Shown piece by piece: positions 2 through 6,783 of a stretch of 6,783 nucleotides of DNA. Source of the DNA: Naegleria gruberi (Eukaryota); the NCBI GenBank assembly GCA_000004985.1, contig GG739017.1; one strand, given 5' to 3'. Within the stretch, counting starts at the first letter, position 1, and the number at the start of each line of letters is the position of its first letter. The position numbers and the translations under genes were made by a program. The notes beneath the pieces are model-generated. The model did no database searches. It was given only the letters and a program-made list of their open reading frames with translations, and was not told the origin of the DNA.

Positions 2-529
2 GGTGTGAACTTTACAGTTTGTTGTGATTTGGTTTTAAGTAATGGAAAGGTTGGACATAATTTGGATTTTTCAAAAGAAACTCAACATGTTAAAGTGAAT
101 GTTTGTAATCCTGATTTGGTTTATCAAGGTGTTTCAAAACATCCAAGATTTACAATGGGTGCTTTCTTAGAAGCTTTGGATACTTTATTTTTCATTTCAA
201 ATGGAAAGAGACAACATTTACAATATGAATTATTTGGAAAACCACACAAAGTCACCTATGATTATGCAAAGAAAGTTTTAATTGACCAATTGAGATCCTC
301 ACATGCTGGTCATGAAGATAGAGATAATGTCGATGATATGACTATTTATGCAATTGGTGACAATCCATTGAGTGATATCAAAGGTGCAAATGGTGCTGGA
401 TTTGTTTCCATGTTATTGAGAACTGGAGTTTGGCAATCAAGTGAAGAAAATGATTCACAAAATCCTGCAACTCACGTATTTCCATCTGTTAGGGAAGCAT
501 TTAAATTTATTTGTGATAAACATTTATAA
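2..529 (+). CDS. C-terminal fragment (5'-truncated by the window edge) of a HAD-superfamily subfamily IIA hydrolase (NagD/CECR5/YKR070W-like); stop TAA at 527-529
   Basis: The frame is open from nt 2, and the track's M at position 5 is a GTG so the ORF continues upstream of the window. It contains the HAD-IIA motif III lysine context LFGKPHK (~233-250) and a motif IV-like IYAIGDNPLSDIKGANGAG (from ~347), followed by a hydrophobic cap and end. Codon usage matches the other genes (GAA, CAA, AGA, GGT). Confidence 0.55.
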   Translation, partial: GVNFTVCCDLVLSNGKVGHNLDFSKETQHVKVNVCNPDLVYQGVSKHPRFTMGAFLEALDTLFFISNGKRQHLQYELFGKPHKVTYDYAKKVLIDQLRSSHAGHEDRDNVDDMTIYAIGDNPLSDIKGANGAGFVSMLLRTGVWQSSEENDSQNPATHVFPSVREAFKFICDKHL

Positions 530-924: not shown

Positions 925-1140
925 ATGGGAGGAGCTGTGCCTCAATTCCAACATATGGGACAAGGTGCTCAACAAGTTCCTCAAATTCATAACCAATACT
1001 ATAACCAACAATCTCAAGCTCAACAAGGTAGGATAAACCAACTAGCCAACTCAAATAATGGCATGGGTCATTTTCAAGTTCCAATGAACAATCAACCACA
1101 AACCCAAGGAGGTGGTCATCAACCTCACAATAACTTCTAA
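925..1140 (+). CDS. Hypothetical small Q/N-rich protein (71 aa)
   Basis: ATG-initiated ORF very rich in Gln/Asn/Gly/Pro (MGGAVPQFQHMGQGAQQVPQIHNQYYNQQSQAQQ...), encoded almost entirely with CAA/AAC/GGT/CCA codons, as in yeast coding sequence. A TATTTAAAG TATA-like element lies ~110 bp upstream (810-818). Downstream of the stop are AT-rich 3'-end-like motifs (TATGTGTATAC, tandem AAATAACAAAT x2 at ~1166-1195). No recognisable domain, and an alternative out-of-frame ATG at 914 gives a 38-aa peptide. Confidence 0.25.
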   Translation: MGGAVPQFQHMGQGAQQVPQIHNQYYNQQSQAQQGRINQLANSNNGMGHFQVPMNNQPQTQGGGHQPHNNF

Positions 1141-1272: not shown

Positions 1273-1653
1273 ATGTTTATGTTTATTGTACTTGCTAACA
1301 AGGAGGGTGGATACTATGAGGAGATGGTTCCAATCCTCTCATATTTGGGAAACTCTTTAGCCCACTTGATCATGTTATATGAGCACGAGCTTCAGCATAG
1401 TGAGTCCTTAAATGAATCACATTTTGTTAATAGTGATAACCAATTTGATAACTTAATCAACCCACTATTGGGGGAAAGTGAATTGTTTAAGTCAGCCGAA
1501 CTGTCATTAGCATTATTTAGGGAATTAGAGGAGGGAATTATTAACAAAAGAATCATCAAAACAAACAAGAGGCTTATCGTTTGTCCTAGGAGGCAAACTA
1601 TTGCAAATGATTGTTCTCTTTTCAAGGAATGCTTGAACAAAAAGTGCATGTGA
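1273..1653 (+). CDS. Hypothetical ORF (126 aa), no recognisable domain; overlaps the 3' part of the minus-strand ORF 2007..1525
   Basis: ATG-initiated ORF with no similarity recognised. GAG is used more often than GAA and AGG is frequent, unlike the confident genes here, which argues against it being real. Its last 129 nt overlap the opposite-strand 160-aa ORF, so at most one of the two is coding there. Confidence 0.15.
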   Translation: MFMFIVLANKEGGYYEEMVPILSYLGNSLAHLIMLYEHELQHSESLNESHFVNSDNQFDNLINPLLGESELFKSAELSLALFRELEEGIINKRIIKTNKRLIVCPRRQTIANDCSLFKECLNKKCM

Positions 1654-2007
1654 GCTAACGGTTTTGAAAATTAATTTATCTGGAGCTTGAAGTTGTACTT
1701 TTTCTAAGCTTTCTTTTATGTGAGGTAGACCAGATAATCCAATTACTTCCAAAAGTGGTTGATCAGTCTCAGAAAAGCTCTTTAATTTTAACATCAAGGA
1801 ATAGGTACTTGATGTTATCTCAGCTACCTGTTCCGAAAGGTGGCTCATTAAGCACCATTCGCTTACCCTGTTATCAGAGTTTTGTAACAGTGTTTTAAAG
1901 CCTTGTTTGATGATTTCCATGAACTTGCTCTTCCAACTCTGTAGTGTGAATAAGCTCATTTTTTTCAGTTTGGGCACTAACGAAAACTTTTTTTGGAAAT
2001 ATTCCAT
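1525..2007 (-). CDS. Hypothetical protein (160 aa), no recognisable domain
   Basis: True ATG at 2007 is the first in-frame ATG after an upstream stop (TAA at 2047-2049 on the minus strand). It is the longest ORF in the 1150-2500 interval, and an AT-rich putative promoter lies at 2050-2400. Codon usage is only weakly biased, and there is no motif-level identification. Confidence 0.3.
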   Translation of the reverse strand: MEYFQKKFSLVPKLKKMSLFTLQSWKSKFMEIIKQGFKTLLQNSDNRVSEWCLMSHLSEQVAEITSSTYSLMLKLKSFSETDQPLLEVIGLSGLPHIKESLEKVQLQAPDKLIFKTVSSHALFVQAFLEKRTIICNSLPPRTNDKPLVCFDDSFVNNSLL

Positions 2008-2518: not shown

Positions 2519-4661
2519 TTAATTTACTTTCCTCACAATAAGAGGCCAACCAACTTGAATGACAACGAACTTGTGGATAGTTTTATCATTATTGCCAAGT
2601 AATTCTTGTTCTTTTTTGGCATATTGTTTAACCTTAGAACTTGCCTCATTTAAGATACTTTCAACTTTAACATATTTGTTTGCCCATTTTTGAAAAACTA
2701 GCATATTCAATAACTGGCTTTCATCAGCTTGTAATAATTCTTTAAATTTTTCCTTAAACATATAAGGTTTCCAAATTCTAATAGTAGAATATTGTGATAA
2801 ATACATTGGTCTCAAACGTTTCAATTTAATGATAAATATGTCATTGTCGGTTGAAATAACAAGGTCAGCTCTTAATTCAGTATATTCTTTTCCATTGATA
2901 TGATAATTTGTATATTCCTTTTCTGCTCTAAAAGTAAAATCTTTGCTTCTATATAAAGAATATGATCTCAATGCAGATTCAATACAAGATTGTAAACTTC
3001 TTTCAGACATATCATTGTCAAACACTGTTTCTTGCTTGCTTAAAATACTCCAAAGTAATTTTTTCAAATTATCTTGAGTTGGTTCATTAATAAAAGTTGA
3101 TATATCACTTTCACGTAAAGATATAAGTCTACGTAACTGTTCCAAATATTGAACCTTTGCAATTTCATTTGGAATTAACAATTGTTTTGGATTCATTTGT
3201 TTTGAGGATGATTCTGTGAAAGTAATCATACCATGATAATACATGAATGATAAAGCATTATCACGAATCTTTTGTATATCTTCTTCATTGGATGGTGGAT
3301 CAATAATCTCTCTTAATTTCAGTGAAGGATAAATTGACTCGGTTACTTCTATATAATCTTTTGAAAGTAATTGTTGAATAATATCATTCGATACAACTGA
3401 TGATGCCAAAGTTGCAAAAACGTTCTCACTGATCATTGTGTTGGTATCTGTTAATATTGATAATGGAATTTCTTGTTTTTGTAGAACAGCATTTCTGAAA
3501 GGTTCATCTTTTACAAGTTTGTTCAAAAAGAACATTGAAAGAGTTGTGTTGAATAGAGCATGTTTTGAACCAGGAAAATGATAACCTTTATAATACTTTT
3601 TCATGGTTGAAATGGTAATATCTTGATCATTTCCAATAATATCAATGTTATTTAATGCCATTCTCAAATCATTTTCTGTAAAACCAACCAAACCACCAAA
3701 TATCTTATCAGAGGAAATATTACTGGAAACATTATATCCAGATGCATCAGCAAGAGCAATAGGAGTGATACCAGTGATGATACTACGAAAATCTTGTAAA
3801 CCAGTAGCGGAAGACTCTTTCAATCTTTCAAAGAAAGAACGAATTGGTGAAGATGTTGGATCTCCTCTCTTTCCTTCAACTATTAATTGATATTTTTCAG
3901 GATTTTCAAATATTAATTTGTTTGCAAATCTATCATATTCATCAATTAATACCATTAATTTGCCTTTTCTCTTGACTAAAAGTTGGATAAGTTTTTGATA
4001 AGTATCAAATGAATCATTTTGATTAATGCTTACCTCACCACCCATACCATAACATTCCAAAAATCCTTCAATGGTTGTATTGATTTTTCTCATGAAGCCG
4101 TTGATTAATATCTTCCGTTGTACCATCAACTTGAATAGAAAAATCTAACTTTAAAACATGATATTGATTCTTTCCAGGTGTCCAATTCTGTTCATCACCA
4201 ATCCATAAACCAGAAAATAATTCATCAAATTCATCTTTCTTGTTAACATCATAATATAATGAAAGCATTGATAGTAATAGTGATTTTCCCCATCTCGGAG
4301 GACGAACCAAAAATAATTGATCACCTGCCTCCTCTAATCGTGGAATTAAATTAGTTTTATCAACATAAAATTGTTTACTTCTTCGGATGGAACCAAAATC
4401 TGATTTTCCATATGGAAAATATGGTACTAATAATTTTTTATCATTAATGTTGTTAAATTTAATGTTGTTATTTGTTTGTTTTAGAAATTTTAATGAATTT
4501 GAATAGTTTTTAAATTGATTAATTGTACACTTATTATTATTGATGATTAAATTATTAATTTTGAAGATTGGTGTGTTGTGCGGTGTAATTTTAGGTGATG
4601 CAGTAAATAATTGCAATCCTGATGATTTTGTGCTGATTTTACTAAGGACGTTATGTTTCAT
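2519..4661 (-). CDS. AAA-ATPase-like (Pfam PF09820 type: YVDKT ... RPxRxGKSL) protein with C-terminal PD-(D/E)XK-nuclease-like domain (PF08011/DUF1703 type) and an N/K/S/T-rich N-terminal leader; reading frame interrupted by a single-nt frameshift in the T5 run at 4084-4088 (track ORFs 4682..4068 and 4129..2519 are the two halves)
   Basis: N-terminal half: PYFPYGKSDFGSIRRSKQFYVDKTNLIPRLEEAGDQLFLVRPPRWGKSLLLSMLSLYYD is the hallmark block of the predicted AAA-ATPase family (..DF..LR..N..YVDKT...I..L......FLSRPRRFGKSL..S.L). Family-consistent blocks follow downstream: LKLDFS, LIDEYDRFANKL, YKGYHFPG, and a C-terminal GKEYTELRADLVISTDNDIFIIKLKRL that resembles the GRIDLvi....iiiEFK nuclease core. 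The first true ATG is at 4661; the track's 4682 start is a TTG, and a TGA lies just upstream in frame. The two ORFs overlap in different frames. The downstream frame opens immediately after a TAG at ~4150-4152. Removing one A from the AAAAA run yields a continuous ...DINQRLHEKINTTIEGFLECYGMGG... sequence. Confidence 0.7.
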
Positions 4662-4732
4662 ATTTTTCCATTTTTTAACCAATCTTCAAAATGACAACAT
4701 TCACTGTGAATTCTACTTTTCGGTTCGTTCAT

Positions 4733-4976
4733 CCCAACACACTTTGAGGGAAAGTACACCAAAAACTCATTGGCACAACTGTTCCCAGCACACTTTTAAG
4801 TTTGTAAATCAATAAACTATTAAGAATATTTACCAATGCCCCTTCTCCTTCTTTTTCTTTGATAGTACTACCCTTTATCATGCTGGGAGAGTGTTATTTA
4901 TGATTCGGAAGAGAGTAATAACCTTTACAAAATGTGATGGTCAGTCTCATAACATTTTCAAAATGTGCTGGGAACA
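4733..4976. repeat. Short repeated motif CCCA[A/G]CACACTTT: direct copies at 4733-4748 and 4784-4800, inverted copy at 4964-4976 (13-mer TGTTCCCAGCACA at 4780-4792 is exactly reverse-complemented at 4964-4976)
   Basis: Found by direct reading. CCCAACACACTTTGAG and CCCAGCACACTTTTAAG lie 51 bp apart on the + strand. TGTGCTGGGAACA at 4964-4976 is the exact reverse complement of 4780-4792. All copies lie in the intergenic region just upstream (promoter side) of the minus-strand AAA-ATPase-like gene. Confidence 0.5.
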
Positions 4977-5206
4977 ATTCAGTTCGGTTAAAATGCAAAG
5001 TTGTAGAACAGCACATGCCTTGAACTCATTCAGCAAGTGGCAATTCATCTCCGTTCTATTACAGTTGATCAGACACTATTTGTGATGTTTCTGCCATCAC
5101 TGACTATGTTGTTTAACTGTTATTCAAGGTCGCTAGGAAGCAACAAATGTTGTCCATAGATTATCAACTATAATAGAATGCTTACACACTTCTTGAGTAT
5201 AATTTG

Positions 5207-5527: not shown

Positions 5528-5938
5528 NNNNNNNNNNNNNNNNNNNNNNNNNNNNNNNNNNNNNNNNNNNNNNNNNNNNNNNNNNNNNNNNNNNNNNNNN
5601 NNNNNNNNNNNNNNNNNNNNNNNNNNNNNNNNNNNNNNNNNNNNNNNNNNNNNNNNNNNNNNNNNNNNNNNNNNNNNNNNNNNNNNNNNNNNNNNNNNNN
5701 NNNNNNNNNNNNNNNNNNNNNNNNNNNNNNNNNNNNNNNNNNNNNNNNNNNNNNNNNNNNNNNNNNNNNNNNNNNNNNNNNNNNNNNNNNNNNNNNNNNN
5801 NNNNNNNNNNNNNNNNNNNNNNNNNNNNNNNNNNNNNNNNNNNNNNNNNNNNNNNNNNNNNNNNNNNNNNNNNNNNNNNNNNNNNNNNNNNNNNNNNNNN
5901 NNNNNNNNNNNNNNNNNNNNNNNNNNNNNNNNNNNNNN
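5528..5938. other. Assembly gap (411 N) inside the intergenic region between the divergent AAA-ATPase-like gene and the DEAD-box helicase gene
   Basis: Uninterrupted run of n from 5528 to 5938. The ORF-track entries made of X (5369..5941, 5487..6146, 5519..5986, 5524..6009) are artefacts of translating this gap. Confidence 0.99.
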
Positions 5939-6181: not shown

Positions 6182-6783
6182 ATGGTTAATAATGATATTA
6201 CCGTAACTGTAGAAGATGACTACAAGCAAAAGAGCGGAAAGGCTAGATATGAACAAAAAGAAGTTAAGGAATTTGATGATATGAATCTTAAGGAAGATTT
6301 ACTCAGAGGAATTTACTCTTATGGTTTTGAAAAGCCATCAATTATCCAACAACGTGCCATCTTGCCAATCACTACTTCTGAACCACCAGCAGACGTTATT
6401 GGTCAAGCCCAATCTGGTACTGGTAAGACTGCTACTTTTACTATTTCATTGCTTCAAAGATTAAATATTTCTCCTGATGTTATCCAACCACAAGGACTTG
6501 TTTTGGCTCCAACAAGAGAATTGGCTCAACAAATCCACAAGGTCATCATGTCATTGGGTGAATATATGAAGGTTAAAGTACACGCTTGTGTTGGTGGTAC
6601 TAAAGTTCAACACGATATTGCCATTCTTGAAGAAGGTGTCCACATTATTGTTGGTACTCCTGGACGTGTTTTCCACATGATTCAAAGTGGTCACTTGAAC
6701 GTTAACAGCATTAAGATGTTAGTTATCGATGAAGCCGACGAAATGTTGAGCAGAGGTTCAAGGATCAAATTAGCCATCTTAAG
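6182..6783 (+). CDS. FAL1: DEAD-box ATP-dependent RNA helicase, eIF4A-III / Fal1-like (N-terminal ~200 aa; 3'-truncated by the window edge); apparent 1-nt deletion at 6755-6758
   Basis: Translation gives ...[33 protein letters not shown]... (Q-motif), [22 protein letters not shown] (Walker A / motif I at ~6401-6430), [13 protein letters not shown] (motif Ia), [19 protein letters not shown] (motif Ib) and [11 protein letters not shown] (DEAD / motif II at 6728-6739). LLRGIY(S/A)YGFEKPS, GTPGRVF and DEADEML match eIF4A-III/Fal1 rather than canonical eIF4A (VRGIFGYG). Strong yeast-optimal codon bias. It is not in the ORF track because it has no stop inside the window. Confidence 0.85.

What the first reader, a model, noticed from the sequence alone, without database searches (positions are those of the whole stretch)
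2519..4661. Bacterial-type AAA-ATPase-like + PD-(D/E)XK nuclease-like gene in a yeast-like genome
The YVDKT...FLxRPxRxGKSL N-terminal block, followed by a C-terminal restriction-endonuclease-like (GRxDLvi....iiiExK-type) block, defines a poorly characterised protein family (predicted AAA-ATPase / DUF1703 PDDEXK_9). The family is abundant in Bacteroidetes and other bacteria and archaea, and is sporadic in eukaryotes. Here it sits between a HAD hydrolase gene and a FAL1-like helicase, in DNA that otherwise looks like ordinary Saccharomycotina chromosome. Its codon usage is host-like (AGA, TTA/TTG, CAA, GAA) and it carries a eukaryote-style low-complexity N-terminus. That points to an old, domesticated acquisition or a patchily retained ancestral gene rather than bacterial contamination. 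The function of this family is unknown in any organism, which makes a conserved eukaryotic member a useful handle.
Basis: partly seen in the sequence, partly recalled or inferred. Interest (0 to 1): 0.75.

Follow-up and report, generated by a model that had tools for sequence, protein, structure and literature searches.

The report
Broken Naegleria ATPase-nuclease gene copy
The gene is real and belongs to the poorly understood "AAA-ATPase-like plus PD-(D/E)XK nuclease" (DUF1703) family, but the DNA is a small scaffold of the amoeba Naegleria gruberi, not a yeast, and this copy is one damaged member (frameshift plus a lost catalytic residue) of a family of at least seven loci whose intact members look mitochondrion-targeted.

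Summary
The observation largely holds. On the minus strand, 4661 to 2519, two ORFs join into a 713-aa protein once one A is removed from an A5 run (4084-4088). Pfam PF09820 matches at E=2e-41. The C-terminus is a PD-(D/E)XK domain by profile-profile comparison (hhalign 96%, E=4.5e-9) and by fold, although Pfam PF08011 itself does not hit.

The interpretation needs correcting. The window is an entire 6,783-bp scaffold of Naegleria gruberi NEG-M (Heterolobosea), not Saccharomycotina. GenBank already holds the gene as a truncated 524-aa model, NAEGRDRAFT_76530. It is one of at least seven N. gruberi paralogues with a mosaic, gene-conversion pattern.

This copy has a frameshift that sits exactly at a switch of best-matching paralogue. 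It also has Glu to Lys in the catalytic ExK motif; Glu is 94% conserved there, and the Lys is shared with paralogue 68474. It is most likely a decaying or non-catalytic copy, though an assembly artefact is not excluded.

All eukaryotic relatives form one clade (neighbour-joining bootstrap 100%). Most carry basic, acid-poor N-terminal extensions that bacterial homologues lack, which suggests mitochondrial targeting; this is inferred, not shown. It is neither bacterial contamination nor a yeast HGT. Interest is modest.

The parts
2519..4661 (-). Whole frame-corrected coding region (713 codons plus TAA stop at 2519-2521) of a DUF1703-type gene. No intron is needed. GenBank annotates only 4093..2519 as NAEGRDRAFT_76530 (524 aa).
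   Evidence: ORFs; joined translation; exact match of the 524-aa part to EFC35810/XP_002668554 on a 6,783-bp contig.
4416..4661 (-). N-terminal extension, residues 1-82, absent from bacterial homologues. It is basic, Ser/Thr/Asn-rich, and has no acidic residue in the first 40 aa. Putative mitochondrial presequence (inferred).
   Evidence: The equivalent residues 1-73 of the paralogue model are disordered (pLDDT<50). There is no alternative start codon between Met1 and the P-loop.
3746..4415 (-). PF09820 AAA-ATPase_like domain (residues 83-305), interrupted by the frameshift.
   Evidence: E=2e-41; split hits. The fold resembles SSO1545, PAB2304, NB-ARC and ORC/Cdc6.
4281..4304 (-). Atypical Walker A motif RPPRWGKS (residues 120-127).
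   Evidence: The pattern RPxRxGKS is conserved in essentially all 74 aligned homologues and was described for DUF1703 in PMC1913061.
4084..4088 (-). A5 run holding one extra base, which causes the frameshift after Lys192. It lies exactly where the best-matching paralogue switches from 78045-like to 62270/62226-like.
   Evidence: Alignment to homologues is continuous across the site.
3932..3949 (-). Walker B motif LIDEYD (residues 238-243).
3029..3745 (-). Middle helical region (residues 306-544): the lid and helical domains between the ATPase and the nuclease. Codons 321-440 are 100% identical at the nucleotide level to the metagenome paralogue L001.
   Evidence: Secondary structure; nucleotide identity profile.
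2522..3028 (-). [quoted passage not shown] It is too diverged to hit PF08011.
   Evidence: hhalign 96%, E=4.5e-9. Predicted fold. Matches to SduA, CinB and viral PD-(D/E)XK nucleases.
2819..2872 (-). Nuclease motifs II and III: RADLVISTDNDIFIIKLK. Asp599 (2864-2866) is kept. The catalytic Glu612 is replaced by Lys (AAA, 2825-2827). Lys614 (2819-2821) is kept.
   Evidence: The nearest paralogue, NAEGRDRAFT_62270, has IIELK. Paralogue 68474 shares IIKLK.
5..529 (+). Flank: C-terminal part of a HAD-type hydrolase (NAEGRDRAFT_76529). It is 170/170 aa identical to NAEGRDRAFT_30028 on the 941,567-bp scaffold.
6182..6783 (+). Flank: N-terminal part of an eIF4A/FAL1-type DEAD-box helicase, running off the end of the window.

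Best explanation
Shown: the window is a complete small scaffold of Naegleria gruberi NEG-M. The gene at 4661-2519 (minus strand) belongs to a eukaryote-specific branch of the DUF1703 architecture. From N- to C-terminus it has: a roughly 80-aa extension; an ORC/STAND-like AAA+ ATPase (PF09820) with the atypical P-loop RPxRxGKS and Walker B DEYD; a helical middle region; and a C-terminal PD-(D/E)XK nuclease domain. N. gruberi holds at least seven such loci, and they exchange segments, giving a mosaic, gene-conversion pattern.

Shown for this copy: it carries a one-base insertion in an A-run that separates the P-loop from the rest of the protein, and a Glu-to-Lys change at the metal-binding Glu of the ExK motif.

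Inferred for this copy: it is a recently disabled paralogue. It is either a pseudogene or, at most, a truncated, nuclease-dead product.

Inferred for intact family members: the N-terminal presequence takes the protein into the mitochondrion. There ATP binding and hydrolysis by the AAA+ module gates oligomerisation or DNA engagement, and the C-terminal PD-(D/E)XK domain then cuts DNA, in mtDNA maintenance, turnover or organellar defence.
For: Host and locus:
- The HAD flank is 100% identical to N. gruberi proteins, and the recorded contig length equals the window length, 6,783 bp.
- The 524-aa ORF downstream of the frameshift is exactly NAEGRDRAFT_76530.

Family assignment:
- PF09820 at E=2e-41.
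- The P-loop, DEYD and nuclease residues E580/D599/E612/K614 are conserved in nearly all 74 aligned homologues.
- hhalign of the eukaryotic C-terminal profile against the bacterial PF08011-type profile gives 96%, E=4.5e-9.
- Foldseek finds ORC/Cdc6, SduA and viral PD-(D/E)XK nucleases.

Multigene family and mosaicism:
- Paralogues 78045, 62270, 62226, 68474, 63616 and EFC35597 exist alongside this copy.
- Codons 321-440 are 100% nt-identical to L001, against 56-69% in the C-terminal part.
- The best-matching paralogue changes from segment to segment.

Defects in this copy:
- The frameshift.
- E612K at a position that is 94% Glu across the family.
- The corrected 713-aa protein is absent from a 15-billion-sequence collection.

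Mitochondrial targeting:
- Bacterial homologues start at MKF/MKY, directly at the conserved FPYG motif.
- 21 of the 33 homologues with an extension of at least 20 aa (31 of them in the eukaryote-type set) have net charge of +3 or more and at most one acidic residue in the first 40 aa.
- Acidic residues make up 4.1% of the extensions against 12.6% of the mature parts (p=3e-24).
- R-x-F/Y-S motifs (IRSFSTT, IRKFSTT, RFLSTT) resemble bona fide N. gruberi presequences listed in PMC8134430 Supplementary Data 2.
Against: Pseudogene status is not proven.
- Apart from the single extra A, the 713-codon frame is open, and only 19 residues after position 82 differ from paralogue 62270.
- The frameshift lies exactly at a paralogue-switch point, in a small gapped scaffold whose HAD flank duplicates the 941-kb scaffold. 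It could therefore come from a chimeric or erroneous assembly.
- The Lys variant is kept in a second locus that is 98% identical over 380 aa, so it might be a maintained non-catalytic form.
- dN/dS in the C-terminal part against L001 is about 0.4-0.7 with saturated dS, which is uninformative.

Mitochondrial localisation is inferred from sequence only.
- These proteins were not found in the stored copy of the N. gruberi mitochondrial proteome table, but that copy is truncated.
- A sub-group of eukaryote-type sequences has acidic extensions that do not look like presequences.

No biochemical data exist for any DUF1703 protein in the literature searched.
Confidence: 0.6

Rival explanations
1. The gene is intact and functional. 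The extra A is a sequencing or assembly error, or the product of a chimeric assembly of near-identical paralogues in a small scaffold. The Lys-612 form is a maintained, catalytically inactive 'pseudo-nuclease' paralogue that still binds ATP and DNA, for example as a regulator or partner of the active copies.
For: There is a single frame disruption in 713 codons. The ATPase motifs are intact. The frameshift sits precisely at a switch of best-matching paralogue. The scaffold has a 411-N gap and its HAD flank duplicates another scaffold. The Lys variant is shared by NAEGRDRAFT_68474 at 98% identity. Other heterolobosean paralogues also have altered catalytic residues yet have open frames (Willaertia P0004 with D to R and E to D; N. 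lovaniensis P0008 with D to S and K to T).
Against: The corrected 713-aa sequence is not present anywhere in the protein collection. The other Lys-type locus is also annotated only as a truncated 380-aa model. Glu at this position is 94% conserved family-wide.
Confidence: 0.33
2. The N-terminal extension is not a targeting signal. The eukaryotic proteins act in the cytosol or nucleus as STAND-type, ATP-gated nuclease sensors, an immune-like role analogous to bacterial Avs or NLR-like systems. The paralogue expansion and gene conversion reflect arms-race diversification.
For: The ATPase module is structurally closest to SSO1545/PAB2304 and to NB-ARC/STAND proteins (plant NLRs, CED-4, Avs3/Avs5, BrxC). 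The family is multi-copy and mosaic, with a variable C-terminal half. Some eukaryote-type sequences have acidic extensions that do not resemble presequences. The proteins were not seen in the stored part of the N. gruberi mitochondrial proteome.
Against: There are no PADLOC hits. All seven heterolobosean full-length proteins, and most other eukaryotic ones, have basic, acid-free, hydroxyl-rich N-termini with R-x-F/Y-S motifs, and bacterial homologues lack any extension. No sensor repeat domain (LRR, TPR or WD40) is present in the model.
Confidence: 0.3
3. One reading: an old, domesticated bacterial gene in a Saccharomycotina (yeast) chromosome.
For: AT-rich DNA, AGA/TTA/CAA/GAA codon preference, and housekeeping-type neighbours. 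These features are shared by Naegleria.
Against: The flank and the gene are exact matches to N. gruberi NEG-M entries on a 6,783-bp contig. The closest homologues are Naegleria and Willaertia, and no fungal yeast hit appeared in two database-wide searches.
Confidence: 0.01
4. Bacterial contamination, or a very recent bacterial insertion in the assembly.
For: The family is overwhelmingly bacterial (PMC3424549).
Against: Bacterial homologues are only 27-34% identical. The gene falls inside a clade of 35 eukaryote-type sequences with 100% bootstrap. Orthologues and paralogues sit among ordinary eukaryotic genes in N. lovaniensis and Willaertia. Composition matches the flanks.
Confidence: 0.01
5. 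The gene is the nuclease/ATPase of a selfish mobile element, which would explain its copy number and lack of synteny.
For: There are at least seven loci in N. gruberi, a tandem pair in Willaertia, no conserved neighbours, and structural similarity of the ATPase to TnsC and MuB.
Against: Similarity between the window and L001 stops within 6 bp of the start codon and 1 bp of the stop codon, so no shared element ends exist. No terminal inverted or direct repeats flank the gene. There is no transposase or integrase nearby in the window.
Confidence: 0.05

Closest known systems
DUF1703 proteins of bacteria and archaea (Pfam PF09820 AAA-ATPase_like + PF08011 PDDEXK_9; Knizewski et al. 2007, PMC1913061; Cardinium cCpun expansion, PMC6387759)
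   Same: Same four-part architecture: AAA+ domains 1 and 2, a helical linker and a C-terminal PD-(D/E)XK domain. Same atypical P-loop RPxRxGKS and Walker B DEYD. Same nuclease motifs (E, D, ExK, Q) in the intact paralogues. Like the Cardinium family, the Naegleria family is multi-copy and recombining. Full-length homology at E about 1e-50.
   Different: Only about 30% identical. The eukaryotic branch is a separate clade. It carries an N-terminal extension of 25-100 aa, has a longer insertion after nuclease strand 3, and no longer scores against PF08011. This particular copy has Lys in place of the ExK Glu, and a frameshift.
NAEGRDRAFT_62270 / 78045 / 62226 (N. gruberi paralogues; UniProt D2V0E8, D2V0I2, D2V0A7; 78045/D2V0I2 is named 'AAA-ATPase-like domain-containing protein', the other two 'Predicted protein')
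   Same: 94%, 78% and 81% identical respectively. 62270 has the same type of C-terminal half. The domain order is the same.
   Different: Those three are full-length with an intact IIE(L/F)K motif. The window copy has a divergent N-terminal 82 aa (36 differences), the frameshift and E612K.
Archaeal 'Arch_ATPase' proteins SSO1545 (PDB 2fna) and PAB2304 (2qen); ORC/Cdc6; STAND NTPases (NB-ARC of plant NLRs, CED-4/Apaf-1, bacterial Avs, BrxC)
   Different: Sequence identity is 8-13%. The sensor residues are replaced (as noted in PMC1913061). There are no repeat-type sensor domains, and the effector is a C-terminal PD-(D/E)XK nuclease.
PD-(D/E)XK nucleases such as Shedu SduA (8ps5), Wolbachia CinB (7esz) and phage or archaeal-virus exonucleases
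   Same: The fold of the C-terminal domain and the positions of the D...ExK residues in intact paralogues.
   Different: No detectable sequence similarity, a different domain context, and catalytic Glu missing in the window copy.

Membership tests
Pfam PF09820 (AAA-ATPase_like; N-terminal module of DUF1703 proteins) | HMM match above the curated gathering score | tested here: met
   142.4 bits against a cut-off of 26.1, E=2e-41, profile positions 1-199 of 201, on the frame-corrected protein. 103.2 and 32.1 bits on the two uncorrected ORFs.
Pfam PF09820 (AAA-ATPase_like; N-terminal module of DUF1703 proteins) | Atypical Walker A R-P-x-R-x-G-K-S and Walker B D-E-Y-D (PMC1913061) | tested here: met
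   RPPRWGKS at residues 120-127 and LIDEYD at 238-243.
Pfam PF09820 (AAA-ATPase_like; N-terminal module of DUF1703 proteins) | Uninterrupted reading frame through the domain | tested here: not met
   One extra A at 4084-4088 separates the P-loop from Walker B. Whether this is biological or an assembly artefact could not be tested.
Pfam PF08011 (PDDEXK_9; C-terminal nuclease of DUF1703 proteins) | HMM match to PF08011 | tested here: not met
   No hit at E<=10. None of the eukaryote-type homologues carries a precomputed PF08011 hit, whereas the bacterial ones do.
Pfam PF08011 (PDDEXK_9; C-terminal nuclease of DUF1703 proteins) | Homology of the C-terminal domain to PF08011-bearing proteins by profile-profile comparison | tested here: met
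   hhalign probability 96%, E=4.5e-9, with D, ExK and Q aligned. An HMM built from the bacterial C-termini alone gives only E=0.17.
PD-(D/E)XK nuclease superfamily | [quoted passage not shown] | tested here: met
PD-(D/E)XK nuclease superfamily | Catalytic residues D ... (D/E)-x-K | tested here: not met
   Asp599 and Lys614 are present, but Glu612 is Lys (codon AAA, 2825-2827). Glu is found in 94% of 70 aligned homologues.
Mitochondrial presequence-bearing proteins | N-terminal extension relative to prokaryotic homologues; net positive, acid-poor, hydroxyl-rich; R-2/R-3 type cleavage motif | tested here: met
   An 82-aa extension with 5 K/R, 0 D/E and 9 S/T in the first 40 aa. Across extension-bearing homologues, acidic content is 4.1% in the extensions against 12.6% in the mature parts (p=3e-24). 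Motifs include IRSFSTT, IRKFSTT and KNYSN. No dedicated predictor (TargetP, MitoFates) was available.
Mitochondrial presequence-bearing proteins | Experimental detection in mitochondria | tested here: inconclusive
   Accessions and peptide strings of the N. gruberi paralogues were not found in the stored copy of Supplementary Data 2 of PMC8134430, but that file was cut when stored.
Saccharomycotina (yeast) chromosomal gene | Closest relatives of the gene and its flanks are yeast sequences | tested here: not met
   The gene and the HAD flank are exact N. gruberi entries. No yeast hits.
Known anti-phage defence proteins (PADLOC-DB) | Match to a defence-system HMM | tested here: not met
   No meaningful hit for the window protein, P0001 or a bacterial homologue.

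The most novel reading that the evidence does not exclude
The eukaryotic DUF1703-type proteins would form one monophyletic, patchily distributed clade. Its named members come from Heterolobosea, the amoebozoan Clydonella and the aphelid Amoeboaphelidium, plus protist transcriptomes of unnamed species and many environmental eukaryote contigs. Under this reading they are mitochondrion-imported, ATP-gated PD-(D/E)XK DNA nucleases, a so-far undescribed component of mtDNA maintenance or organellar defence acquired once from bacteria. In Naegleria the family would have expanded and would diversify by gene conversion, producing catalytically dead copies such as the one in this window.
Probability: 0.3. 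Interest if true: 0.6.

Novelty: new member of a known kind. Interest (0 to 1): 0.3.

Why it matters
The finding itself is mostly a correction.

What may be worth following up is the family around it. A well-supported eukaryote-only clade of a large, uncharacterised bacterial ATPase-nuclease family carries presequence-like N-termini and is expanded and recombining in Naegleria. If the intact paralogues (for example NAEGRDRAFT_62270 and 78045) really are mitochondrial nucleases, they would give the first testable cellular role for DUF1703 proteins. They would also be a new example of a bacterial conflict-type module recruited to an organelle.

Tried and rejected
- NCBIfam, PADLOC and PDB-by-sequence searches gave nothing useful.
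- Pfam PF08011 gave no hit. An HMM built only from bacterial C-termini was also too weak (E=0.17).
- Fetching the N. gruberi 941-kb scaffold through exact-protein look-ups failed for P0002, P0127, P0128 and P0121. I therefore could not test synteny, haplotig status or dN/dS among the N. gruberi paralogues.
- A Biopython distance and bootstrap run timed out. I replaced it with my own neighbour-joining script. This is NJ only, with no maximum-likelihood tree and no rooting.
- The AFDB50 fold library was unavailable.
- A literature search for the locus tags and for eukaryotic PF09820 proteins found nothing.
- The look-up in the N. gruberi mitochondrial proteome supplement was negative, but the stored file is truncated.
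- IMG/VR holds only distant, bacterial-type relatives at 24-33% identity over most of the match (one 74-residue segment reaches 45%), so a giant-virus origin is not supported.
- Intron rescue of the frame is rejected, because homology is continuous across the site with no spare sequence.
- Programmed frameshifting is considered unlikely, because the aligned full-length paralogues read straight through this site; L001, the one paralogue whose DNA was available, has a different codon context there.
- A transposon origin is rejected for lack of shared ends or repeats.
Full report
**What is in the sequence.**

The finding lies on the minus strand. ORF listing gives two overlapping ORFs in different frames, 4068-4682 (204 aa) and 2519-4129 (536 aa). 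Each hits one half of Pfam PF09820 (profile positions 1-106 and 99-199). The break is in the run GAGAAAAATC (A5 at window 4084-4088).

Removing one A gives a 713-aa protein starting at the ATG at 4661 and ending at the TAA at 2519-2521. The joined protein matches PF09820 at 142.4 bits, E=2e-41, residues 83-305. It aligns without a gap across the junction to every homologue. An intron therefore cannot explain the break.

Walker A (RPPRWGKS, 4281-4304) and Walker B (LIDEYD, 3932-3949) are the atypical DUF1703 versions described by Knizewski et al. 2007 (PMC1913061).

**The C-terminal nuclease.**

Pfam PF08011 does not hit, even at E<=10.

The domain is nevertheless a PD-(D/E)XK homologue, on three lines of evidence:
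- Full-length bacterial homologues that carry PF08011 align over up to 88% of the query.
- A profile of the eukaryotic C-termini matches a profile of the bacterial PF08011-type C-termini with hhalign probability 96%, E=4.5e-9, placing D, ExK and the motif-IV Q in register.
[quoted passage not shown] It draws SduA, CinB and many viral PD-(D/E)XK nucleases in fold searches.

In the 74 aligned homologues the nuclease residues E580, D599, E612 and K614 are almost invariant. The window copy has Lys at 612 (IIKLK, codon AAA at 2825-2827), one G-to-A step from GAA.

**Where the DNA comes from.**

The best homologues are Naegleria and Willaertia:
- an ENA contig, 79% identical
- N. gruberi NAEGRDRAFT_78045, 76%
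- N. fowleri, 58%
- Willaertia magna, 53%
- N. lovaniensis, 49% and 41%

The HAD-type ORF at 5-529 is 100% identical to N. gruberi NAEGRDRAFT_76529, whose contig length is 6,783 bp, the length of the window. The 524-aa ORF that starts just after the frameshift (MRKINTT..., 4093-2519) is exactly NAEGRDRAFT_76530 (EFC35810, XP_002668554, D2W543) on that same 6,783-bp contig.

The window is therefore a whole small scaffold of the N. gruberi NEG-M assembly. It contains a 411-N gap at 5528-5938. The gene is already deposited as a truncated model that lacks the P-loop.

GC3 of the gene (0.20) matches the flanks (0.17 and 0.30). 'Yeast-like genome' is wrong. 'Not a bacterial contaminant' is right.

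**A recombining multigene family.**

N. gruberi has three full-length paralogues on one 941,567-bp scaffold (78045, 62270, 62226). It also has a partial copy (EFC35597), a 380-aa model (68474), a more distant 376-aa model (63616), and the window copy.

Segment by segment, the window matches different paralogues best:
- residues 141-192 match 78045 (51/52)
- residues 193-237 match 62270 and 62226 (45/45), but 78045 only 19/45
- residues 481-713 match 62270 (228/233)
- residues 1-82 match none well (49/75)

Against the metagenome contig L001, nucleotide identity is 100% over codons 321-440 but 56-69% over the last 150 codons. Similarity ends within 6 bp of the start codon and 1 bp of the stop codon, and the flanks are unrelated. 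This is the signature of gene conversion among dispersed paralogues, as reported for the bacterial DUF1703 expansion in Cardinium (PMC6387759).

In N. lovaniensis and Willaertia the genes are single-exon and lie among ordinary eukaryotic neighbours, as a tandem pair in Willaertia. There is no HAD/eIF4A synteny.

**Is this copy functional?**

Two lesions distinguish it from its nearest full-length paralogue, 62270: the frameshift and E612K. Only 17 other substitutions occur after residue 82.

The Lys is not a read error. NAEGRDRAFT_68474, on a 413-kb scaffold, is 98% identical over 380 aa and also reads IIKLK. That locus, too, is annotated only as a truncated model.

The frameshift sits exactly at the 192/193 paralogue-switch point. 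The HAD flank is 170/170 identical to NAEGRDRAFT_30028 on the 941-kb scaffold. The extra A may therefore mark a sloppy conversion-tract end, or it may be a chimeric or erroneous assembly of a haplotig.

The corrected 713-aa protein is absent from the 15-billion-sequence collection. This is only weak evidence, because no other N. gruberi assembly seems to be included.

My estimates are about 0.6 for a genuinely disabled or non-catalytic copy and about 0.33 for an intact gene with an assembly error and a maintained pseudo-nuclease domain.

**What the family probably does.**

The ATPase plus helical region is structurally closest to the following:

These are nucleotide-gated switches that oligomerise or load onto DNA. 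Fused to a PD-(D/E)XK domain, the simplest mechanism is an ATP-gated DNA nuclease. This is inference. No DUF1703 protein has been characterised in the literature I could search, and PADLOC has no model for it.

**The eukaryotic branch and its N-terminus.**

In a neighbour-joining tree (547 columns, 200 bootstraps) all named eukaryotic sequences group with 100% support, apart from the bacterial sequences. The named members are Naegleria, Willaertia, Clydonella, Amoeboaphelidium and an MMETSP transcript. About 25 environmental sequences group with them. One of these environmental members lies next to an LTR retroelement on a 227-kb contig.

A profile search shows a clear score gap between this branch (at least 440 bits for full-length members) and the bacterial homologues (at most 300 bits). 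PF08011 hits occur only in the latter.

Bacterial proteins begin MKF or MKY, directly at the conserved FPYG motif. Eukaryote-type proteins carry extensions of 25-100 aa. In 21 of the 33 sequences with an extension of at least 20 aa, including all heterolobosean ones and the window copy, the first 40 residues have net charge of +3 or more and at most one acidic residue. Overall the extensions are 4.1% acidic, against 12.6% in the mature parts (p=3e-24).

Motifs such as IRSFSTT, IRKFSTT, RFLSTT and KNYSN resemble presequences of proven N. gruberi mitochondrial proteins listed in PMC8134430. The extension is disordered in the model and must be translated, since no other start codon precedes the P-loop.

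I therefore read the 'low-complexity N-terminus' as a probable mitochondrial presequence. I could not confirm this experimentally, because the stored copy of the N. gruberi mitochondrial proteome table is truncated and contains none of these proteins. A sub-group of environmental sequences has acidic extensions and may be located elsewhere.

**Origin.**

The huge bacterial diversity, the patchy eukaryotic distribution and the single eukaryotic clade fit one old bacterial acquisition followed by loss or eukaryote-to-eukaryote spread. At least three paralogue groups pre-date the splits within Naegleria.

My unrooted NJ tree cannot name a donor or exclude ancestry from the mitochondrial endosymbiont. 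IMG/VR contains only distant, bacterial-type relatives.

**Verdict.**

The family assignment is right, and the host assignment is wrong. The gene is a probably defective member of a known, uncharacterised family, and it is already in GenBank in truncated form.

The modestly new point is the presequence-bearing eukaryotic clade. It deserves a localisation experiment on an intact paralogue rather than on this copy.

Noticed in passing
window 5-529 (+): The HAD-hydrolase fragment is 170/170 aa identical to the C-terminus of NAEGRDRAFT_30028. That gene lies on the same 941,567-bp scaffold as three full-length paralogues of the gene under study. The window scaffold may be an unmerged haplotig or a very recent segmental duplicate.
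   Followed up: partly
window 4084-4088 and residues 192/193: The frameshift coincides exactly with the point where the best-matching paralogue switches from 78045-like to 62270/62226-like. This is either a conversion-tract end or a chimeric assembly joint.
   Followed up: partly
window 5528-5938: An assembly gap of 411 N lies between the gene's upstream region and the DEAD-box helicase gene.
   Followed up: no
window 925-1140 (+) and 1525-2007 (-): A Gln/Asn-rich 71-aa ORF and a 160-aa ORF lie between the HAD gene and the DUF1703 gene. The 160-aa ORF has no Pfam hit at E<=0.01, and neither does the 71-aa ORF. Whether either is a real gene is unknown.
   Followed up: partly
window 4777-4799 / 4957-4979: A 23-nt inverted repeat (87% complementary, 157 nt apart) lies about 120-320 bp upstream of the gene's start codon. 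Its significance is unknown.
   Followed up: no
protein database cluster of NAEGRDRAFT_76530: The annotated 524-aa product of the window sits in a '90% identity' cluster whose representative is a 52-aa ENA peptide. That is why the window's own protein did not appear in the homology search.
   Followed up: yes
L004 4853-9046 (Willaertia magna JBEGDK010000141.1): Two PF09820 genes (671 and 681 aa) lie in tandem. One of them (P0004) has Asp to Arg and Glu to Asp in the nuclease motifs and Gly in Walker B. Catalytically altered paralogues are thus not unique to N. gruberi.
   Followed up: partly
L045 4854-7972 and 10360-13347 (ENA contig ctg104483, 227 kb): A head-to-head pair of eukaryote-type PF09820 genes, one of them split into 448-aa and 228-aa calls, lies next to an LTR retroelement (gag zf-CCHC, RT, RNase H, integrase).
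   Followed up: no
BFVD hit A0A3G5AHI5 (Sylvanvirus sp.): A giant-virus protein of 513 aa aligns structurally over 543 alignment columns (gaps included) with the model (E=9e-5, TM 0.41 normalised to the target). A possible viral relative of the whole architecture; not examined further.
   Followed up: no
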